Origin: Thermoplasmata archaeon
Lineage (GTDB): Archaea; Thermoplasmatota; Thermoplasmata; Lutacidiplasmatales; UBA184
DNA: 64,000 nucleotides
Reading direction: 5' to 3'
Assembly (NCBI GenBank): GCA_028864975.1
Contig: JAGWLG010000002.1
Span: 64,001 to 128,000, forward strand
How positions within the stretch are numbered: position 1 is the stretch's first letter; each line of letters starts with the position of its first letter. Shown here one piece after another: positions 11,056-18,433 of the stretch. The position numbers and the translations under genes were made by a program. The notes below the pieces were generated by a model. The model did no database searches and was not told the DNA's origin. It worked only from the letters and a program-made list of their open reading frames with translations.

Positions 11056-14000
11056 ATGGCAAGGAACATGCAGAGGACAAGAACGAACTACGCCGAAGTT
11101 GCGACGATCGCGCTCCTGGGCCTGGTGCTCCTGGGACTCCTCACGCCTGGACCGCTCCGTTCCATGGTCGCCCAAGGCGCGCAAGGGGCCGCTCCCACGC
11201 CCGTCGCCGTCGGGGCGCTGCAGGCCGCCTCGGCCGGCGCGGGGCAGGGGGCCCCCTACGCGGTACATGGGGTCTCGCTCCACCCGCTCAGCGTCGGGGC
11301 TTCGGCCTCGGTAGGGACCTCCCGGGCCCCCCTGGCCTCCGGGGCTTCCCTCGCGGCGGAAGGACCTTCAGCCTCCGTCCCGAACGCCATCAGCCTGGGA
11401 AGCAGCTGGGCCGGGATCAACGCGGCCACCGGTTGCGCCTGTTTCCCACCAGATGGAGCGGAGGGGGAAGGCAACGGCTACGTCGTCCAATCGGTGAACC
11501 TGTGGTACCATGTCTGGACCACGGGAGGGACGTCGCAGTGGAGCGAGTCCGCGTCGACCTTCTTTGGCACGAGCGATGGCCTCTCAGACCCCAAGGTCTT
11601 CTACGACAACCAGACCTCGCGCTGGTTCACCTCGTTCCTTGATGTGACCAACAACCACCTGTGGATTGCGGTCTCCAAGACCTCGACGCCCACGCAGGGA
11701 ACGAGCAACTGGGTCATCTCCGACCTTCCAGGACCATCGAACGGGGACCTCCCGGACCAACCGATCCTCGGGGTGGACGCGAACAACGTGGTCCTTTCCA
11801 CGAACGATTTCTCCTCGACGGCCTTCGACGGCGCCGAGGTCTTCGTTGTCAACAAGACCGCCGTAATGGGGTCCGCCCAGACCGCGTGGGGCTGGACGTG
11901 GGGTCCCAACAATAACTATGGTTCGATGCATCCTGCCTACCACCTCGACGCGACGAACACGATGTGGTTCGCCACCACCTGTGGAGGGGCTGGGACCAAC
12001 TGCACCTGGCCGATTGCTGTTGGGAAGCTCACGGGCTCGCCTCCCGCGACCCCGAACTTCGTGGTCTACAACTACTGGACCTGGACGAACTCGTCTTCAC
12101 AGCTCCCGCCCGCCGTGGGATTCCAGAAGGGGAGCACGGTCAAGCTCGACACCGGCGATGACCGGGTGAGCTCCGCCACCTGGACGAACGGGGTCCTCTG
12201 GGTCGCCGCGGACGACAGCTGTCGCGCCAGCACCGGCTTCGCGAGCTGCCTGCACCTCTGGTCCTTCTCCACCTCCGCCGGCACGCCGAGTAAGGTCCAG
12301 GACTTCAAGTGGGAGGACAAGGCGAACAGCTTCGACGGCTACCCTTCCGTCATCATCGACAAGTACGGGAACGTCGGCGTCTCCTTCGAAGAGGCGAGCA
12401 ACGCGACGTTCCCCAGCACGTACGTCACGGGGCAGGCCACGAGCGACCCTGTCAATACCCTAGAAGCGGCTACGCTCGCGAAGGCGGGGGGCGGAGCGAT
12501 CACCGCGACCCAGAGCAACTTCTGCGCCGGGGTGATCACCTGCGCCCGATGGGGGGACTATTCGGGCTCGTCGGTCGACCCCACCAACCGGAATCAGTTC
12601 TGGATGGAAGCAGAGGACGGCCCGGGGGCCGGCGATAGCTACTGGGCGACGTGGGTCCAGGAGTTCCAGTTCCCATACCCAAGTGGTACCCCCACGGTCA
12701 ACTTCGCCCTCTCCCCGGCGAGCGGGGCGGGCTCGATCTCCTTCAACAGCGTGACCTACTACAACGGCGGCTCGACCAGCATCGCGACGGGGTCCTACCC
12801 TCTGTCCGCGACCACGAACGCCGGATGGCACTTCTCCTCCTGGTCGACGACGGGAGGTCTCTCCGTGGGGGCGAGCGGGCTCACCGTCTCCTCCTCCGGT
12901 ACGCTTACCGCGACCTACACGCAGTACGCCAAGGTGACCTTCGCGATCAACCGTGCCGCCTGCGGGCCGATCACGTTCAACAGCACGACCCAGGCCAACG
13001 CTTCGAGCGCGTCGTACTACACGTCGAGCTCGCCGTTCACGGCGAGCATCCCTGCGTGCGGAGGTGAAACGTTCAGCTCTTGGGCCGTGACGGGCGGAGT
13101 GAGCGTCGGCTCGCCGACCGCGCTCAGCACCTCCGTCACGCTCACGGACAACGGGACGCTCACCGCGAACTTCGTAACGGGCTCTGTCGACGTGGTCACG
13201 GTGGCGATTGCCCCTGGTGCGGGGGACGGTTACGTCACGCTCAGTGGAACCCCCTACTTCAACGGGAACACGGCGAACCTCGCCGCGGGGAGCTACCCGC
13301 TCGCGTTCGCAGCGTCACCGGGTTGGGCGTTCTCGACGTGGTCGGCCACGGGCGGCCTCACCATCGGGGCCGGGACCCTGGCTGTAAGCTCCTCGGGGAC
13401 CCTCACGGTCACCTTCGTGCAAGACCCGACGCTCAGCTTCACGGTGAGCCCAACCTCCTGCCAGCCGATCACCTTCAATGGCAGCACGCCCTGGAACAGC
13501 GGGACGTCGGGGAGCTTCTACACCTCGGGGAGCCCGTACACCGCGTCCGTCGCGGCGTGCTCCGGGTACAGCTTCAGTTCGTGGAGCACTACTGGAGGAG
13601 TAGCCGCCGGCAGCCCCTCCGCCACGAGCACGCCGGTCACGCTGACCGACAACGGCACCCTGACCGCGACGTTCACCGCTTCGTCGGGTGTGACGGTGTC
13701 GTTCACGATCTCCCCCGCGTCGCCCTCGTCGGGCGGATCGGTCACCCTGAACGGCGTGACGTACTACAATGGAGGGTCGGTCTCTATCGCCACGGGGACC
13801 TACACGCTCTCCCAGACCCCCGCCCCCGCCTTCCGGTTCTCCTCGTGGGCCTTCGCCGGTGGGGTCGCGCTCTCGGGCGGCAGCTTGGTCGTGACCGGCG
13901 CCGGGACGGTCACTGCGAACTACGTAGCGGTCTACGGGGTGGCCTTCTCCGTGGCCCCCGCCGCGTGCGCCGCCACCTCGGAGGTCCAGTTCAACGGGAC

Positions 14001-15480
14001 GAACTGGGCGAATGCCGGGAGCGGCACGTTCGCGGGCCTGACCACGAGCGCGCTCGCGGAGCACTGCAACGGCTACCACTTCTCCTCCTGGACCAACTCG
14101 GGGGGCGTCACGGTATCCGGGAGCGCTTCCAACCCCACTTCGACCACGCTCGCGGGGAACGGAAGCCTGGGCGCGACCTGGGCGGTGAACGGCACGACCA
14201 CGTTCTCGATCACGCTCGTCGCTTCGCCCGCGAGCTGCGGACCGATCTCCTTCAACGCGGGGAGCTATGCGAGCGGGTCCTCGGTCACGATCGCAGCAGG
14301 AACCTACGCCCTCTCGGTGGGCTCGTGTTCCGGGTACTCCTTCTCGAGCTGGTCGGCGACGGGATCGAACGTCGTGGCGTTGCCCTCCGCGTCGAGCACG
14401 AGCGTGACCATCGCCTCCGCCGGGACCCTCACGGCGACCTTCAGCTCCGCGACCACCTATGCGGTCACCGTCTCGACCGCGCCCGCCAGCTGCGGGTCGG
14501 TGACCATCAACGGCAACACCTACACGAACGGGATGACCGCCAACCTGGCGGCCACCACGTACCCCATCACGACATCGGCCTGCTCGGGCTACTTCCTCGT
14601 CCCGAGCTTCGCCTTGACCGGCGGGGTCAGCCTGAATGCCGCGCATACCCAGCTTACGGTCTCGAACGCGGGCACGCTCGCGATGACCTTCGCAACGACC
14701 TTGACCGGTCAAGTGAGCGCCACCCCCGCCAGCACCACCACGGGCTCTGCCGTCTCCTTCACCCTGACCTTGAGCGGCGGGTTGGGCCCCTACGTGGCCA
14801 CCTGGAACTTCGGTGATGGTAGCTCGTGGGCCACCACGAACCTCACCTCGACGAGCGGCACCGAGAGCCACACATTCGGTAGCGCGAACACGTTCACGGT
14901 CACGGTGACCGTCCGCGACAGCGTCGGTCAGGTCATCAGCGGCTCCGTGCCGATCCAGGTCAGCTCGAGCTCCGCGGCAGGCTCCCCCATCCCGCTCTGG
15001 GCCCTCGGACTGCTCCTGCTGGTCGTGGTGGCCGCTATCGTCGCCACGGTGTTGCTCGTCCGACGGCGCAAGAAGTCCCAGGAACTCCTCGCAGGTCCCA
15101 ACGCGGCCGCCGGAGCTGCCTACGAGCCTGTGCCGTTCCCGTCCCCCGCCGGCGGCGCTCCGCCGCCGCCCCCGCCGACCTACGGTGCCACGATGGCTCC
15201 GGCGCCTCCACCGCCGGTCACGAGCGCCCCTCCCCCGGTGGCCACGCAGGCGGTCGCGCCCATGCCAGCCCCCGCGCCATTGCCACCGCCCGCTCCGGTC
15301 ACTCCACCGCGCCCGAGCGCGGCCCCTCGGCCAGGTCCCTACCTCACCGAGCGGCAGCGAAGAGCGCAAGAGGCGGCCGCCGCGGCCCCCGCCACGGGAT
15401 CCGCTGCGACGGAGCCTCCCCCCTCGACCTCGACCCCTTCCGAAGGGAGCGGGGGGGCGACCGACGGGAACTCGGGCTGA
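11056..15480 (+). CDS. Large membrane-anchored cell-surface protein: N-terminal signal/TM, about 430-aa putative beta-propeller-like domain, 8 InlB-B-repeat-like modules, PKD domain, TM, Pro-rich cytoplasmic tail
   Basis: Hydrophobic N-terminus; PPD, DQP.LG, RWGDYS...DP motifs; about 80-aa repeats with FSSW..TGG...GTLTA(T/N)F; PKD TWNFGDGS; WALGLLLLVVVAAIVATVLLVRRRKK anchor. Confidence 0.85.
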   Translation: MARNMQRTRTNYAEVATIALLGLVLLGLLTPGPLRSMVAQGAQGAAPTPVAVGALQAASAGAGQGAPYAVHGVSLHPLSVGASASVGTSRAPLASGASLAAEGPSASVPNAISLGSSWAGINAATGCACFPPDGAEGEGNGYVVQSVNLWYHVWTTGGTSQWSESASTFFGTSDGLSDPKVFYDNQTSRWFTSFLDVTNNHLWIAVSKTSTPTQGTSNWVISDLPGPSNGDLPDQPILGVDANNVVLSTNDFSSTAFDGAEVFVVNKTAVMGSAQTAWGWTWGPNNNYGSMHPAYHLDATNTMWFATTCGGAGTNCTWPIAVGKLTGSPPATPNFVVYNYWTWTNSSSQLPPAVGFQKGSTVKLDTGDDRVSSATWTNGVLWVAADDSCRASTGFASCLHLWSFSTSAGTPSKVQDFKWEDKANSFDGYPSVIIDKYGNVGVSFEEASNATFPSTYVTGQATSDPVNTLEAATLAKAGGGAITATQSNFCAGVITCARWGDYSGSSVDPTNRNQFWMEAEDGPGAGDSYWATWVQEFQFPYPSGTPTVNFALSPASGAGSISFNSVTYYNGGSTSIATGSYPLSATTNAGWHFSSWSTTGGLSVGASGLTVSSSGTLTATYTQYAKVTFAINRAACGPITFNSTTQANASSASYYTSSSPFTASIPACGGETFSSWAVTGGVSVGSPTALSTSVTLTDNGTLTANFVTGSVDVVTVAIAPGAGDGYVTLSGTPYFNGNTANLAAGSYPLAFAASPGWAFSTWSATGGLTIGAGTLAVSSSGTLTVTFVQDPTLSFTVSPTSCQPITFNGSTPWNSGTSGSFYTSGSPYTASVAACSGYSFSSWSTTGGVAAGSPSATSTPVTLTDNGTLTATFTASSGVTVSFTISPASPSSGGSVTLNGVTYYNGGSVSIATGTYTLSQTPAPAFRFSSWAFAGGVALSGGSLVVTGAGTVTANYVAVYGVAFSVAPAACAATSEVQFNGTNWANAGSGTFAGLTTSALAEHCNGYHFSSWTNSGGVTVSGSASNPTSTTLAGNGSLGATWAVNGTTTFSITLVASPASCGPISFNAGSYASGSSVTIAAGTYALSVGSCSGYSFSSWSATGSNVVALPSASSTSVTIASAGTLTATFSSATTYAVTVSTAPASCGSVTINGNTYTNGMTANLAATTYPITTSACSGYFLVPSFALTGGVSLNAAHTQLTVSNAGTLAMTFATTLTGQVSATPASTTTGSAVSFTLTLSGGLGPYVATWNFGDGSSWATTNLTSTSGTESHTFGSANTFTVTVTVRDSVGQVISGSVPIQVSSSSAAGSPIPLWALGLLLLVVVAAIVATVLLVRRRKKSQELLAGPNAAAGAAYEPVPFPSPAGGAPPPPPPTYGATMAPAPPPPVTSAPPPVATQAVAPMPAPAPLPPPAPVTPPRPSAAPRPGPYLTERQRRAQEAAAAAPATGSAATEPPPSTSTPSEGSGGATDGNSG

Positions 15481-15483
15481 GGC

Positions 15484-16764
15484 TCAGGAGGGGCGAGGCT
15501 CCGCGGTCCCGTCGAGCCTCCAGAGGGCTCGGCCCACCGTGGAGAGGGCCCCGGTCAGCAACAGTCCTCCCCCGGCCACCTCGAGCGCGAACGAGATCCC
15601 TCGGTAGGTGATGAGGAGCGCCCCCACGACCTGGGCCACGGGCATCACGGCATAGCTCAGGATCCCATCGATGGAGAAGTAGCGCCCGCGCATCCGCTCG
15701 GGGACGATGGTCTGGGCCGTCGTGAGCCAGGTCGTTCCCGCGACCTGCATGACCAGGCTGAAGGCGAAGACGATCGGGACCGAGAGGTAGAAGGAGCCTG
15801 ACCGCGAGAGGGCGAGCAGCAAGACCCCGCACACGACGCCGTACCCAAGGGTCCAGACCTTGCCCGCGTGCTTGACGGCGCGGGTCCTGCCCACGAGCAG
15901 GCCGCCTGCGGCGGTCCCCCCGGTCATGGTCGCGAGGAACAGCCCGAAGGTGAGCGGAGTGCCGTGGAGCCCGAGCGTGACGTAGACGACGATGAACCAG
16001 AGGAAGATCGAGGAGAAGAAGTTCATGAAGAGGGCGGAGATGGAGAGCTCGAAGAGCCCCTTCGAGGAGAGCAGCCAGCGCCCGCCTTCCGCGATCTCCG
16101 ATAGCATTCGCCGACGTGGTACGGACGCCTCCTCGAGCTTCCGAGGGAGGCGCTTCGTCCCGACGCTCACCGTGAAGACCAGGGCGGCGGAGAGCAGGAA
16201 CGTGAGCGTGTTGTACAGCAGGCTCAGGACGACGCCCGCCACGAGGAGGAACGTCCCCGCGATGGAGTTCGACAGCATCGAGATGATGGACCGGGAGGAG
16301 CGGACGAGACCGTTCGCGTCCGCGAGCTGATGCTTCGGGAGGATGGAGGGGATCAGCGACTGCTCGGCCGGGGTGAAGAGCGTACCGACGCACCCTGAGA
16401 CGAAGGCCACGACGAGGAACATTGGGAGGCTGAACCCCCAACGCCAGAACGTGAACGCGAGGGCGCCGATGGCCCCCGCGCGCGCGAGGTCGCTCGCGAC
16501 CATGACCCGTCGACGGTCGTAGCGGTCGACCCACACGCCCGAGGGGAGGCTCATGACCACGATCGTGACCGTGGTGACGATCCCCACGAGGGCGATCGCG
16601 AAGGCGGACCGGGTCGAGGAGAAGACGATCCACGAGATCGTGACGCTGGCGATGGCGCCGCCGCTGATCGAGGTCGCGCCGGCGAGGAAGAGGCGCAGGA
16701 AGTTGCGGTCCCGCAGGACCGAAGCGAGCCCCACGCCCGGCGCGGAGGAGGGGGACGCGCCCAT
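15484..16764 (-). CDS. MFS transporter (DHA3/EntS-like efflux)
   Basis: RNFLRLFLAG..S..G, GVWVDRYDRRRVMVASDL, P.EQSLIPSIL, VPERMRGR; about 12 TM. Confidence 0.93.
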   Translation of the reverse strand: MGASPSSAPGVGLASVLRDRNFLRLFLAGATSISGGAIASVTISWIVFSSTRSAFAIALVGIVTTVTIVVMSLPSGVWVDRYDRRRVMVASDLARAGAIGALAFTFWRWGFSLPMFLVVAFVSGCVGTLFTPAEQSLIPSILPKHQLADANGLVRSSRSIISMLSNSIAGTFLLVAGVVLSLLYNTLTFLLSAALVFTVSVGTKRLPRKLEEASVPRRRMLSEIAEGGRWLLSSKGLFELSISALFMNFFSSIFLWFIVVYVTLGLHGTPLTFGLFLATMTGGTAAGGLLVGRTRAVKHAGKVWTLGYGVVCGVLLLALSRSGSFYLSVPIVFAFSLVMQVAGTTWLTTAQTIVPERMRGRYFSIDGILSYAVMPVAQVVGALLITYRGISFALEVAGGGLLLTGALSTVGRALWRLDGTAEPRPS

Positions 16765-16801
16765 GCACCCCTCTCACGGAGGTGGAGGGTGACCGTGCCC
16801 C

Positions 16802-17524
16802 TCACACCTCGAGCCGGACGACCTCGCGCCCTCCTTCCTTCCCCAGGAGGCGTGCGACGAGCCCCTCGGCGTCCTTCGCCTTTCCGCGGTGGTAACCTTT
16901 GAGCGCGGCTTCGCGCAGCCCATCCGCCCCCATCCCGATGACCTCGGCCTCCATCTCTCCGATGGACCCGCTGGGGTCGACAGCGAATAGGCGAGGCTCG
17001 TGGGCGAGCGTCGAGGCGATGAGGAGCGAGCAGCCGAGGGGGCGATCCTCACGCTTCAACGTGTGTTCCCAGAAGTACCGCGAGGCCTCGTCGACGAGCT
17101 CGTCCGCGCTCTTCCAGGACTGGCGGCGAAGGTGCCGCACGACCGAGCGCCCGTCGGCGACGAGCCCGACCTTGAGGACCGCCACGTGAGGCGAGAGACG
17201 GTCGATCTTCCCGCCCGACCTCACGGTGGGGTTCGGTCCCGCGCTGTAGGCAGCGCCAAGGACCACACCTTTGTCGAAGACCGCCCCTGCGATAGGAAGG
17301 CCGCGCCGGGAGGACTCCCGGGCGTACTCGATCTGGTAGATGCGGCCGTCGGGGGAGAAGTGGTTCACCTTGTCGAAGTCCTGGGCCATCGGGCCGGCCT
17401 GCTGGGCGTACGCCACGATGGCAGCGCGGACGAGCTCGGCCTTGGTGCCGAAGGGGCCCGTGCGGACGAGGGCGTCCAGGTAACGGTCTATCTCGGGTGG
17501 GACGGCGAGTCGAATCTCTGCCAT
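16802..17524 (-). CDS. Ribbon-helix-helix (CopG/ParD-like) domain fused to a divergent proteasome alpha-subunit fold
   Basis: aa1-42 MAEIRLAVPPEIDRYLDALVRTGPFGTKAELVRAAIVAY fits RHH; then MAQDFDKVNHFSPDGRIYQIEYARE (alpha signature), GLVADGR, RPLGCSLLIA, LFAVDPSG, VIGMG. Start re-picked at ATG 17524. Confidence 0.88.
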   Translation of the reverse strand: MAEIRLAVPPEIDRYLDALVRTGPFGTKAELVRAAIVAYAQQAGPMAQDFDKVNHFSPDGRIYQIEYARESSRRGLPIAGAVFDKGVVLGAAYSAGPNPTVRSGGKIDRLSPHVAVLKVGLVADGRSVVRHLRRQSWKSADELVDEASRYFWEHTLKREDRPLGCSLLIASTLAHEPRLFAVDPSGSIGEMEAEVIGMGADGLREAALKGYHRGKAKDAEGLVARLLGKEGGREVVRLEV

Positions 17525-17586
17525 ACGTCGAAGCTCCGCTAGGACGTATGTTTCACGTAGTCTTGAAGGATGATGTACGTGAAACA
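17522..17586. promoter_or_regulatory. Nested inverted repeats with four ACGT cores upstream of the RHH-alpha gene (candidate autoregulatory operator)
   Basis: TGTTTCACGTA (17549-17559) / TACGTGAAACA (17576-17586) perfect 11-bp IR; CATACGTC (17522-17529) / GACGTATG (17543-17550) perfect 8-bp IR covering the start codon. Confidence 0.7.
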
Positions 17587-17641
17587 CGGCGTATTCGCGG
17601 AGACTTCCTCCGACCCGCTGACGCTCCCGAGGAGCGATCGC

Positions 17642-18433
17642 CTACCTTCGGGCGACGAGGATCACGTTGGAGAGCTCTCGCCATAGCACGGCGGACTCCC
17701 GGAACCCCGCCGCCCGCAGGTACCGCCGGTGCTCCTCCTCCGACGGTTCGACCTCGTGGTGGGTCGGCTCAGGGAAGAGGGCGTTCCGTCTCTTGAGCGC
17801 CTCGTGCAGCGACGGGTCGCGGCCGGCCTCGCGCCACCATTCGCGCCACTCGAGGGCGGACCGGCGGACCTCAAGGACCCGTTGTCGTCGATGCAACGTC
17901 TCGGAAGCGAGTTCGCGAAGACGGGGGCTCTCCTCTCCCAGAGGGGCCTTGTCGCCGTTGAGCAGGACCCCTCCGGGGCGGAGCAAGGTCCGAAGGTCTC
18001 GGTAGACACGCCGAAGTTGTGGGGGAAGGAACCAGTGCAGTGCCGTGGTCGAGAGGACCGCGTCGAAGCGCCCCGGGGGCAGGGCGCGGGCCCACGTGGG
18101 AGAGCGCAGGTCGCTCTCCACCCAGCGCAGCCGTTGGGCGACCGAGGGGGGCGCCGACGTCCTCCCGATCGTGAGGAGGAGCGGGTCGATGTCCACGGCG
18201 ACCACGCGGGCCCGTGGGAACCTCGCGAGCAGGCGGAAGGAAAGCGAGCCCGGGCCGCATCCCACGTCCAGGGCGCGGAACGTCGAAGGAAGACCGGCCT
18301 CGAGCAGGTCGAACATCGCCGTGAAGCGAGCTTCGCGGGAGGGAATGTAGCGCGTCTGCATCCGGTCCCACGAGGTCAGGAGGGCCCGGGCACGGGCCCG
18401 GGTGAGCGGGGGAGTAGGGGGAGGAGGGGACAT
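17642..18433 (-). CDS. Class I SAM-dependent methyltransferase
   Basis: RALDVGCGPGSL, VVAVDIDPLLL, FDAVLSTTALHW, LLRPGGVLLNGD. Confidence 0.92.
   Translation of the reverse strand: MSPPPPTPPLTRARARALLTSWDRMQTRYIPSREARFTAMFDLLEAGLPSTFRALDVGCGPGSLSFRLLARFPRARVVAVDIDPLLLTIGRTSAPPSVAQRLRWVESDLRSPTWARALPPGRFDAVLSTTALHWFLPPQLRRVYRDLRTLLRPGGVLLNGDKAPLGEESPRLRELASETLHRRQRVLEVRRSALEWREWWREAGRDPSLHEALKRRNALFPEPTHHEVEPSEEEHRRYLRAAGFRESAVLWRELSNVILVARR

What the first reader, a model, noticed from the sequence alone, without database searches (positions are those of the whole stretch)
16802..17524. Ribbon-helix-helix DNA-binding domain fused to a proteasome alpha subunit
Seen in sequence: residues 1-42 have the RHH pattern (beta EIRLAV, helix, G.F.TKAELVR.A), joined via GP to an internal Met that begins a full alpha-subunit-like fold. 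That fold keeps the gate cluster (F-D for Y8-D9, P17 in FSP, Y26 in IEY) and a Lys in GGKI at about the HbYX-pocket position. There is no beta subunit or PAN next to it. Established: alpha N-termini form the 20S gate, alpha subunits form heptamer rings, and RHH domains act as DNA-binding dimers. Inference: this is either a transcription factor using an alpha-ring as scaffold or peptide/ligand sensor, or a variant alpha that tethers or gates proteasomes on DNA. I know of no characterised protein with this architecture. It is the best candidate here for an undescribed system.
Basis: partly seen in the sequence, partly recalled or inferred. Interest (0 to 1): 0.88.

Follow-up and report, generated by a model that had tools for sequence, protein, structure and literature searches.

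The report
DNA-binding proteasome alpha-like protein, self-regulated
This archaeal gene joins a small DNA-binding domain to a divergent extra copy of the proteasome's outer-ring subunit; a repeat array found only in front of this gene suggests the protein switches off its own promoter, and I found no paper describing this protein type.

Summary
Window 16802-17524 (-) is an intact 240-aa gene with two parts:
- Residues 46-240 form a proteasome alpha-type fold, shortened relative to the canonical subunit.

It is not the organism's alpha subunit. The genome also has a canonical alpha, two betas, PAN, Cdc48 and four PAC2 genes elsewhere.

The fusion is a conserved family:
- More than 100 protein clusters carry it.
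- It occurs in 32 of 201 Thermoplasmata genomes sampled.
- Aciduliprofundum boonei Aboo_0723, from a cultured organism, is a member.
- Longer forms exist; one record is labelled Hodarchaeota.

The RHH part is the best-conserved part. The alpha-like part evolves much faster than canonical alpha.

The main added evidence is a candidate operator. An array of TAC(G/A)T boxes phased at 11 bp lies between the TATA-like element and the ribosome-binding site of these genes. In ten genomes checked, such an array is unique or nearly unique to this promoter.

My best reading is a self-repressing RHH regulator built on an alpha-ring-type oligomerisation module. Here it is probably co-transcribed with an MFS transporter gene. 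Whether it still contacts the proteasome system is open.

I found no published description. This scan has found the same family before on other DNA, in at least six other genomes, with similar conclusions.

The parts
16802..17524 (-). Whole gene for the RHH-alpha protein (240 aa plus stop codon)
   Evidence: The start codon is fixed by orthologues that have a stop 1-2 codons before the same Met (L005, L006, L010, L019) and by GGAG at 17534-17537. Contigs from 4 runs in 2 studies cover 16700-17700 without an indel.
17390..17524 (-). Ribbon-helix-helix domain, residues 1-45 (strand 3-8, helix 10-22, G23 turn, helix 28-43)
   Evidence: This is the most conserved part of the family: M1, E3, R5, G23, F25, K28, E30, L31 and R33 are invariant in 56 sequences. 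RHH_1, ParD, VapB and RHH_8 hits occur in orthologues. AF2 pLDDT is 92. The top PDB fold matches are RHH domains.
17354..17389 (-). Linker and remnant of the alpha gate segment, residues 46-57 (MAQDFDKVNHFS)
   Evidence: pLDDT is low at 45-57. F50-D51 align with Y8-D9 of canonical alpha. M46 is not conserved; orthologues have I, L or F.
16805..17353 (-). Proteasome alpha-like core, residues 58-240: H0 helix and alpha/beta sandwich. It is shortened in the H1-H2 loop and lacks the last strand and C-terminal helix.
   Evidence: P58, G60, R61, Q64 and E66-E70 are invariant. K106 (K66 equivalent) is present here.
17522..17594 (.). Candidate operator: TACGT-type boxes read on the minus strand. ATACGC at 17594-17589, TCACGT at 17582-17577, CTACGT at 17560-17555, ATACGT at 17549-17544, and an inverted box CATACGT at 17522-17528 overlapping the ATG. 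Two perfect inverted repeats are also present: TGTTTCACGTA (17586-17576) with TACGTGAAACA (17559-17549), and CATACGTC (17550-17543) with GACGTATG (17529-17522).
   Evidence: Sequence. Boxes at the same offsets (-45, -34, -23, -4) occur in orthologues. It is the only triple-array hit in the 3.6-Mb genome with a weight matrix trained without this locus.
17534..17537 (-). GGAG ribosome-binding site, 10-13 nt before the ATG
   Evidence: GGAGG or GGTGG lies at the same place in orthologues.
15484..16764 (-). MFS transporter gene, 37 bp downstream on the same strand; probable operon partner
   Evidence: Pfam MFS_3 E 7e-31 and MFS_1 E 5e-25. The spacer has no oligo-T tract. An orthologous MFS gene lies 38-96 bp downstream in most of about 14 related loci, which include GTDB families f1 and f23.

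Best explanation
The gene encodes a self-repressing transcription regulator built on a proteasome alpha-type oligomerisation module.

Shown here:
- The N-terminal 45 residues have the fold and signature of a ribbon-helix-helix domain.
- The rest is a divergent, shortened alpha-subunit fold.
- The protein is an extra paralogue beside a complete canonical proteasome gene set.
- Its own promoter carries a conserved, genome-unique array of TAC(G/A)T boxes spaced one helical turn (11 bp) apart.

Inferred:
- Pairs of RHH domains form the usual two-stranded ribbon. Each pair reads one near-palindromic box, probably through the invariant E3 and R5.
- The alpha-like domains hold several pairs together through alpha-ring-type side-by-side contacts, so that 3-5 boxes on one face of the DNA are bound cooperatively.
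- The array lies between the TATA-like element and the ribosome-binding site, so it covers the likely transcription start. Binding should therefore block initiation of the gene and of the MFS transporter gene 37 bp downstream.

Unknown: what releases the protein from DNA. The conserved H0 helix and pocket lysine make a peptide or a partner protein a reasonable candidate.
For: 1. Conserved fusion: more than 100 protein clusters cover 95-100% of the query at 238-253 aa. In the class, 32 of 201 genomes in 10 of 30 sampled families score 207-358 bits over the full length, against 141 bits or less for canonical alphas.
2. RHH evidence: the domain is the most conserved part. Mean identity among 8 genomes is RHH 59.6%, alpha-like 36.4%, canonical alpha 64.7%. 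Further support comes from Pfam RHH_1, ParD and VapB hits, the AF2 model at pLDDT 92 and fold matches to ParD, NikR, CopG, Arc and PutA-RHH/DNA.
3. Operator conservation: among 30 orthologue promoters, 14 have 3 or more boxes and 23 have 2 or more boxes chained at 10-12 bp. Dinucleotide shuffles give means of 0.007 and 0.55. Control windows from the same loci give 0 of 5712 and 23 of 5712. The spacers between boxes are not conserved. One locus, L033, has five perfect ATACGT boxes at 11 bp.
4. Operator uniqueness: a weight matrix trained without this locus gives one triple-array hit in the whole genome, at this promoter. A triple-box pattern finds only, or almost only, the RHH-alpha promoter in nine other genomes.
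5. Position: in AT-rich orthologues the array starts 0-10 bp after a TTTAAATA-like box and ends before GGAGG.
6. Self-association: four copies score ipSAE 0.67 (median of 3 runs) against a best control of 0.01. The runs agree in at least 62% of contacts and the partner pLDDT is at least 77. In the tool's calibration the mark was reached by 20 of 30 proteins solved as pairs and 1 of 23 solved as single chains. The contacts are the alpha-ring lateral ones (54-62 and H2 of one copy with H0 64-74 and H1 121-130 of the next).
7. Extra paralogue: canonical alpha, two betas, PAN, Cdc48 and four PAC2 genes lie elsewhere in the genome.
Against: - No binding was measured, and no transcription start is known.
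- In this GC-rich promoter only two boxes are adjacent at 11 bp. The others sit at 22-bp or 12-bp steps or are inverted, and no clear TATA box is visible.
- The RHH domains were not among the confident contacts in the four-copy model.
- Sequence-profile matches to solved RHH proteins are not significant (E 0.06-0.1), and Foldseek E-values for the 46-residue model are 0.3 or more.
- The self-association score may come from memory of solved alpha rings.
- A regulator whose only visible target is its own operon needs a further function, which is not identified.
- Downstream genes differ between clades (MFS, PAC2, a roughly 950-aa secreted protein, or none).
Confidence: 0.6

Rival explanations
1. 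Moonlighting protein of the PutA type. On this reading its main job lies in the proteasome system, for example as an alternative cap-like alpha ring, an assembly platform, or a docking site for HbYX-bearing partners such as PAN, Cdc48 or PAC2. The RHH domain would only feed the amount of free protein back onto its own promoter.
For: - The H0 helix and pocket residues (P58, G60, R61, Q64, E66-E70) are invariant, although the rest of the alpha part has drifted to 36% identity.
- K106 (K66 equivalent) is Lys in 49 of 71 loci, including this one.
- In one clade (family f10) the gene overlaps or abuts a PAC2-family gene (E 5e-46) whose product ends in MYG, an HbYX-type tail.
- The only detectable operator is the protein's own, which fits homeostatic feedback better than a regulon.
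Against: - In the PAC2-linked clade the pocket lysine is replaced by Cys or Gly.
- The H1-H2 loop is shortened and the C-terminal helix is missing. From my own knowledge of the 1PMA structure, that loop region faces the beta ring.
- No proteasome gene lies near the gene in this window.
- Distribution is patchy: 32 of 201 genomes.
Confidence: 0.2
2. Alternative alpha subunit that is built into 20S particles in place of canonical alpha. The RHH domain would plug or modify the gate, or tether the particle to DNA.
For: - The gate cluster equivalents (F/Y50, D51, P58, Y67) are kept.
- The alpha fold and lateral contacts are predicted.
- Archaea with two alpha paralogues are known (my own knowledge, e.g. 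Haloferax).
Against: - It scores far below the PsmA equivalog cut-offs (83.6 against 287 bits).
- It forms a separate clade with long branches (100/99 support).
- It carries a family-wide deletion in the H1-H2 loop and has lost the C-terminal strand and helix.
- The RHH domain is under stronger constraint than the alpha part and is matched by a conserved operator-like array.
Confidence: 0.08
3. The N-terminal domain is a protein-binding module, as in antitoxins, and does not read DNA. The phased boxes would then be bound by another factor, or would be a promoter or leader element of a different kind.
For: - The nearest solved sequence and fold relatives are ParD antitoxins.
- No DNA binding has been shown.
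- The last two boxes form an inverted repeat near the ribosome-binding site. Both of its halves change together in some clades (TACGT/ACGTA to TCCGT/ACGGA, TCCAT/ATGGA, TCCGG/CCGGA). An RNA hairpin could also explain this.
Against: - ParD antitoxins themselves bind DNA through the RHH domain (my own knowledge).
- The boxes follow this gene through 10 families and very different GC contents, and occur nowhere else in the genomes checked.
- No toxin gene is adjacent.
- The strand residues E3 and R5 are invariant, in step with an invariant TAC(G/A)T core.
Confidence: 0.08
4. Artefact: a frameshift or misassembly joined two genes, or the real product starts at the internal Met (17389).
For: None was found. 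The idea rests only on the unusual architecture.
Against: - The same fusion is present in more than 100 clusters from independent assemblies and in 70 fetched loci.
- Contigs of four runs from two studies show no indel.
- M46 is not conserved.
- The N-terminal residues are invariant at the protein level.
- The cultured A. boonei genome carries the gene as one ORF.
Confidence: 0.01

Closest known systems
Archaeal 20S proteasome alpha subunit PsmA (TIGR03633 / NF003075; e.g. T. acidophilum 1PMA, A. fulgidus alpha ring 1J2P)
   Same: Same fold (Foldseek E 1e-16, TM 0.70-0.76, about 30% identity). The Proteasome and Proteasome_A_N signatures are present. The H0 helix SPDGRxxQxEYARE is invariant, and the Y8/D9/P17/Y26 equivalents are kept, as in most clades is the K66 equivalent. 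Ring-type lateral contacts are predicted.
   Different: - An RHH domain replaces the free gate tail.
- About 9 residues of the H1-H2 loop and the last strand plus C-terminal helix are missing.
- It scores far below the equivalog cut-offs.
- It forms a separate, fast-evolving clade.
- It is present in addition to a canonical alpha.
- It has its own operator-like array.
RHH regulators with a fused effector or oligomerisation domain: NikR (RHH plus nickel-binding tetramerisation domain) and PutA (RHH plus proline-catabolic enzyme, which represses its own operon)
   Same: The N-terminal RHH model superposes on the NikR and PutA RHH domains (TM 0.77-0.85, rmsd 0.8-1.6 A). The candidate operator lies in the gene's own promoter. 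A C-terminal domain would supply higher-order assembly or a second function. PutA and NikR biology is from my own knowledge.
   Different: The fused domain is a proteasome alpha fold, which to my knowledge has not been reported in any DNA-binding protein. No ligand is known. Membership in these families is not claimed; only the working principle is compared.
Small RHH repressors that bind arrays of short repeats (Arc, MetJ, CopG, omega) and ParD antitoxins
   Same: The beta-alpha-alpha topology and the G-x-x-x-S/T/N-K-A-E cap of helix 2. ParD gives the best sequence and fold matches. The operator is made of several short boxes on one face of the DNA. Arrays of this kind are known for Arc, MetJ, CopG and omega (my own knowledge).
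   Different: - Stand-alone relatives with the same signature exist (48-83 aa), but here the domain is fused.
- The box is TAC(G/A)T at 11-bp steps.
- No toxin partner is present.
Aciduliprofundum boonei T469 Aboo_0723 (ADD08534.1 / WP_008082465.1), named 'ribbon-helix-helix protein, CopG family' by NCBI and '20S proteasome A and B subunits' in UniRef
   Same: It is a member of the same family (233 aa; matched 1-237 of the family profile at 227 bits; identified). Two TACAT boxes 11 bp apart lie directly after a TTTAAATA element.
   Different: It is about 37% identical to this protein. I found no paper on it. The databases name one half or the other, never the combination.

Membership tests
Archaeal proteasome alpha subunit (PsmA) | Pfam Proteasome (PF00227) and Proteasome_A_N (PF10584) above their cut-offs | tested here: met
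   67 bits against 22.4, and 31.3 bits against 27.7.
Archaeal proteasome alpha subunit (PsmA) | Score at or above the NCBIfam equivalog or subfamily cut-off (TIGR03633, NF003075) | tested here: not met
   83.6 against 287.35 bits, and 90.7 against 219 bits.
Archaeal proteasome alpha subunit (PsmA) | Alpha-type fold with an H0 helix on the Ntn-hydrolase sandwich | tested here: met
   AF2 pLDDT is 86.5. The best PDB matches are alpha chains, E 1e-16.
Archaeal proteasome alpha subunit (PsmA) | Free N-terminal gate tail, full H1-H2 loop and C-terminal strand plus helix | tested here: not met
   The RHH domain precedes the YD(R) equivalent. There is a 9-residue deletion in the H1-H2 loop, and the protein ends about 35 residues early.
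Archaeal proteasome alpha subunit (PsmA) | Groups with the canonical alphas of its class | tested here: not met
   It forms a separate group with 100/99 support and long branches. The bit scores are bimodal.
Archaeal proteasome alpha subunit (PsmA) | Forms heptameric rings that stack on beta rings | not testable with these tools
   Only lateral self-contacts were predicted (score 0.67 against control 0.01). Seven copies, or copies with beta, could not be folded.
Ribbon-helix-helix superfamily (CopG/Arc/MetJ; Pfam RHH_1 and relatives) | Profile match to RHH families | tested here: inconclusive
   - This sequence alone gives no hit for residues 1-48, and only VapB 0.1 and ParD 0.015 for the whole protein.
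- 15 of 28 orthologues hit RHH_1 (best E 4e-4), and 8 hit ParD.
- The fragment P0143 passes the cut-off at 21.4 against 20.5 bits.
- P0102 carries PF01402 in the precomputed annotation.
- NCBI names the A. boonei member CopG family.
Ribbon-helix-helix superfamily (CopG/Arc/MetJ; Pfam RHH_1 and relatives) | Strand-helix-helix topology that superposes on solved RHH domains | tested here: met
   The model has pLDDT 92.3, with helices at 10-22 and 28-43 and an extended stretch at 1-9. The top 27 listed PDB matches are RHH domains (probability up to 0.97, TM 0.7-0.85), although E is 0.3 or more.
Ribbon-helix-helix superfamily (CopG/Arc/MetJ; Pfam RHH_1 and relatives) | Dimer through an antiparallel two-stranded ribbon | tested here: inconclusive
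   The four-copy model listed no confident contacts for residues 1-45.
Ribbon-helix-helix superfamily (CopG/Arc/MetJ; Pfam RHH_1 and relatives) | Sequence-specific binding to repeated operator boxes | not testable with these tools
   The support is indirect: a conserved, phased, genome-unique TAC(G/A)T array in the gene's own promoter.

The most novel reading that the evidence does not exclude
An alpha-type ring that is itself a DNA-reading machine. The ring would present several RHH pairs on its gate face and read boxes one helical turn apart. It would be released from DNA when the ring is engaged by a partner of the proteasome system, such as an HbYX tail of PAN, Cdc48 or PAC2, or a beta ring. 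That would give direct feedback from proteasome assembly or load to transcription. The principle is known for PutA but has never been seen for a proteasome part.
Probability: 0.22. Interest if true: 0.9.

Novelty: new variant of a known kind. Interest (0 to 1): 0.72.

Why it matters
Proteasome alpha subunits are known only as gate and docking rings of the protease. Here the fold appears to have been recruited as the body of a DNA-binding regulator, or a proteasome-type ring reports on itself to its own promoter. The family is conserved and under selection. It occurs in a cultured archaeon (A. boonei). It comes with a sharply defined candidate operator. The hypothesis can therefore be tested directly with a gel shift, a footprint and a size measurement. 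Long forms in a record labelled Hodarchaeota, and earlier scan notes on Asgard genomes, suggest the architecture is old or mobile among archaea. That bears on how proteasome parts diversified before eukaryotes.

Tried and rejected
- **Misassembly or frameshift.** Rejected.
- **Translation from the internal Met 17389.** Rejected. M46 is not conserved, and the N-terminus is invariant at the protein level.
- **The longer GTG-started ORF reaching 17587.** Rejected. Orthologues have stops 1-2 codons before the Met.
- **"It is the only psmA".** Rejected.
- **Regulon search in the window's genome.**
  - Strict chains of three boxes: none.
  - The weight-matrix triple array finds only the gene's own promoter.
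  - Pairs occur at roughly chance level. The two weak pairs on contig C115 have a different arrangement, and one of them lies inside an ORF. I dropped them.
- **Extra array in genome G043.** An additional five-box tandem array (C134:12186-12234) is absent from four other genomes of that genus and has near-identical spacers, so it is probably a local tandem repeat. Rfam finds nothing there.
- **Stand-alone close relatives of the RHH part.** The word-based search found only fragments of the same family. The exhaustive profile search did find small stand-alone relatives.
- **Sequence profiles against solved structures.** Only weak ParD matches.
- **Idea that the neighbouring PAC2 protein docks its HbYX tail on the K66-type pocket.** Weakened, because the PAC2-linked clade has Cys or Gly at that position.
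- **RHH pairing in the four-copy model.** No verdict.
- **Expression.** No RNA holder is listed for this stretch.
- **Distant long forms and a stand-alone relative.** Their promoters do not show the same TACGT array.
- **Literature.** No description was found with the terms used. The survey of proteasome homologues PMC8665760 does not mention RHH or DNA binding.
Full report
**The gene.** Window 16802-17524 on the minus strand is an open frame of 240 codons plus a stop. Its start codon is well fixed:
- GGAG lies 10-13 nt upstream (17534-17537).
- Several orthologues have a stop codon one or two codons before the same Met (L005, L006, L010, L019).
- The longer GTG-started frame reaching 17587 is therefore not the gene.
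- The internal Met at 17389 (M46) cannot be the start, because orthologues have I, L or F there.
- Contigs assembled from four public runs of two studies (mine drainage and soil) cover 16700-17700 without any indel. They differ at one base, 17580, in the distal box.

**The alpha-like part.**
- Pfam finds Proteasome and Proteasome_A_N above their cut-offs.
- Solved archaeal and eukaryotic alpha subunits are the best sequence matches (E 1e-20 and weaker).
- The AF2 model (pLDDT 86.5) superposes best on alpha chains of T. acidophilum and A. fulgidus (E 1e-16, TM 0.70-0.76).

It is nevertheless not a PsmA orthologue:
- It reaches only 83.6 and 90.7 bits against cut-offs of 287 and 219 for the NCBIfam alpha models.
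- It lacks about nine residues of the H1-H2 loop, and the last strand plus C-terminal helix (alignment A3).
- In a tree it forms its own group (support 100/99) with branches several times longer than those of canonical alphas.
- Across eight genomes that have both proteins, the alpha-like part is 36% identical on average and the canonical alpha 65%.

What stays fixed is the H0 region (P58, G60, R61, Q64, E66-E70) and D51, with F or Y at position 50. In most clades K106 is also kept; it is the equivalent of the HbYX-pocket lysine K66. In the clade that sits next to a PAC2 gene, K106 is replaced by Cys or Gly.

**The RHH part.**
- Residues 1-45 are the most conserved stretch of the family. M1, E3, R5, G23, F25, K28, E30, L31 and R33 are invariant in 56 sequences, and mean identity is 60% in the eight-genome comparison.
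- This sequence alone gives only sub-threshold RHH hits.
- 15 of 28 orthologous N-termini hit RHH_1, and others hit ParD, VapB or RHH_8.
- One family fragment passes the RHH_1 cut-off.
- NCBI names the A. boonei member a CopG-family RHH protein.
- Folded alone with a 38-sequence alignment, the domain gives pLDDT 92 with an extended N-terminal stretch and two helices.
- Its best PDB matches are RHH domains almost without exception: ParD, NikR, PrpA, Arc, CopG on DNA, omega, and PutA-RHH on operator DNA at TM 0.85/0.88. The E-values are weak, as expected for 46 residues.
- Sequence profiles against solved structures stay non-significant (ParD, E 0.06-0.1).

I take the RHH assignment as well supported by convergence of these lines, not by any single statistic.

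**An extra paralogue in a conserved family.** The genome holds a canonical alpha (248 aa), two betas with the GTTTVG active-site start, PAN, Cdc48 and four PAC2-family genes on other contigs.

The fusion is widespread:
- More than 100 protein clusters of 238-253 aa cover 95-100% of the query.
- In 201 sampled genomes of the class, 32 genomes from 10 of 30 families have a full-length match of 207-358 bits. Canonical alphas score 141 bits or less and match only from about position 42 onward.
- One genome in that tally (G098) is unpublished.
- A DNA-pattern scan found 40 loci, 39 of them labelled Thermoplasmata, Thermoplasmatota, Methanomassiliicoccales or Methanobacteriota; one sits in a bin labelled Nitrospirae.
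- An exhaustive profile search with the N-terminal domain also found long forms of 262-301 aa that keep the full alpha C-terminus. One is named as from a Hodarchaeota MAG. It also found stand-alone proteins of 48-83 aa with the same signature.
- One family member is Aboo_0723 of the cultured Aciduliprofundum boonei T469.

**The candidate operator.** I tested this across orthologues.
- Upstream of the ATG, orthologues from GC-rich and AT-rich genomes alike carry 2-5 boxes of the form (A)TAC(G/A)T at 11-bp steps, often at the same offsets (-45, -34, -23). The spacers between boxes are not conserved.
- Many also carry an inverted box that overlaps the start codon (ACGTATG).
- Locus L033 has five perfect ATACGT boxes.
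- Of 30 promoters, 14 have three or more chained boxes and 23 have two or more. Dinucleotide shuffles give 0.007 and 0.55 on average. Other windows of the same loci give 0 and 23 of 5712.
- A weight matrix built without this locus finds a single triple array in the 3.6-Mb genome, at this promoter.
- A triple-box pattern finds only or almost only the RHH-alpha promoter in nine other genomes, with reversed-pattern controls of 0-3 per genome.
- In AT-rich orthologues the array begins right after a TTTAAATA-like element and ends before the GGAGG site. By the usual archaeal spacing of TATA box and start site (my own knowledge), the array therefore covers the likely transcription start. That is the classic place for an archaeal repressor.

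In this window the boxes, read on the minus strand, are:
- ATACGC at 17594-17589
- TCACGT at 17582-17577
- CTACGT at 17560-17555
- ATACGT at 17549-17544
- an inverted box, CATACGT on the plus strand, at 17522-17528

Two perfect inverted repeats lie among them. Only one pair of boxes is adjacent at 11 bp, and I see no clear TATA box in this GC-rich promoter. The case here therefore leans on the orthologues.

**Neighbours.** An MFS transporter gene follows 37 bp downstream on the same strand, with no oligo-T tract in between. A methyltransferase gene and a class I Trp/Tyr-type tRNA synthetase gene lie upstream. Across 70 loci:
- An orthologous MFS gene follows in about 14 loci, which include families f1 and f23.
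- A PAC2-family gene overlaps or abuts the stop codon in about 17 loci (family f10). Its product ends in the HbYX-like MYG.
- A secreted protein of about 950 aa follows in family f18.
- Others have no conserved partner.

**Self-association.** Four full-length copies folded together scored ipSAE 0.67 (median of three runs), against 0.01 for the best of three controls. The runs agreed in at least 62% of contacts, and the partner pLDDT was at least 77. In the tool's calibration this mark was reached by 20 of 30 proteins solved as pairs and 1 of 23 solved as single chains. The tool notes that these counts hold only roughly here, because four copies and my own alignment were used. The contacts are those of neighbouring subunits in an alpha ring. 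The pass may come from likeness to solved rings, so it shows that the surfaces are still ring-like, not that a ring forms. The RHH domains were not placed with confidence.

**Reading.** The best-supported explanation is a self-repressing RHH regulator whose alpha-like body multimerises, so that several RHH pairs bind boxes on one face of the DNA. In this genome it would control its own gene and probably the MFS gene. The fold assignments, the paralogy, the conservation pattern and the operator-like array are shown. DNA binding, repression, the oligomeric state and the releasing signal are inferred. The only visible target is the gene's own promoter, and the H0/pocket region is frozen while the rest drifts. 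A PutA-like double life, with a second role in the proteasome system, therefore remains a serious rival. A standard place in the 20S particle is unlikely.

**Novelty.** I found no paper on this architecture with the terms I used. A dedicated survey of proteasome homologues does not mention it. Databases name one half or the other. This scan has reported the same family on other DNA at least six times, with similar conclusions: self-repression, a PAC2 pairing, and presence in three phyla. My results agree with those notes. Of the multi-phylum claim I confirmed only the one Hodarchaeota-labelled record.

Noticed in passing
L111:1501-1575 (G043:C134:12186-12260): A second array of five TACGT boxes at 11 bp, followed by two inverted TACAT boxes. 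It lies just after a surface-protein gene and about 600 bp before gyrB. It is absent from four other genomes of the same genus and has no Rfam match. It is either a local tandem repeat or a lineage-specific second target.
   Followed up: partly
L013:2223-3005 (and L014-L016, L034, L036, L040-L043): In family f10 the RHH-alpha gene overlaps or abuts a PAC2-family gene (PF09754, E 5e-46) whose product ends in the HbYX-like MYG. A PrsW intramembrane protease gene lies upstream. In this clade the K66-equivalent lysine of RHH-alpha is Cys or Gly.
   Followed up: partly
L106:2872-2887; L005 and L010 just before position 1501: The long-form gene from the Hodarchaeota-labelled MAG and two Thermoplasmata short-form genes share the identical 13 nt GGAGGTATGACGT directly before the ATG. 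This could be a conserved initiation region with an inverted box, or a sign of transfer or mis-binning.
   Followed up: no
L027, L038, L028, L042 (upstream 100 nt of the gene): The proximal inverted repeat TACGT-N4-ACGTA is replaced by TCCGT..ACGGA, TCCGG..CCGGA or TCCAT..ATGGA. Both halves change together. This could reflect a shift in operator specificity or a leader RNA hairpin.
   Followed up: no
window 17580: This is the only difference among contigs of four public runs: T>C on the plus strand in two runs. It turns the distal ACGT core into GCGT.
   Followed up: no
window 11056-15480 (+): A 1474-aa ORF reads like a secreted or surface protein, with many repeated Ser/Thr/Gly-rich beta-type modules, a membrane anchor and a proline-rich tail. 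It is convergent with the MFS gene. In family f18 and in the P0009 locus a large secreted protein follows RHH-alpha directly.
   Followed up: no
L025:7640-7700 (G000:C115:47139-47199): Two GATACGC boxes 11 bp apart plus one inverted copy lie 50-95 bp upstream of a 1088-aa ORF on the opposite strand. The arrangement differs from the RHH-alpha operator, and the score is near chance level.
   Followed up: partly
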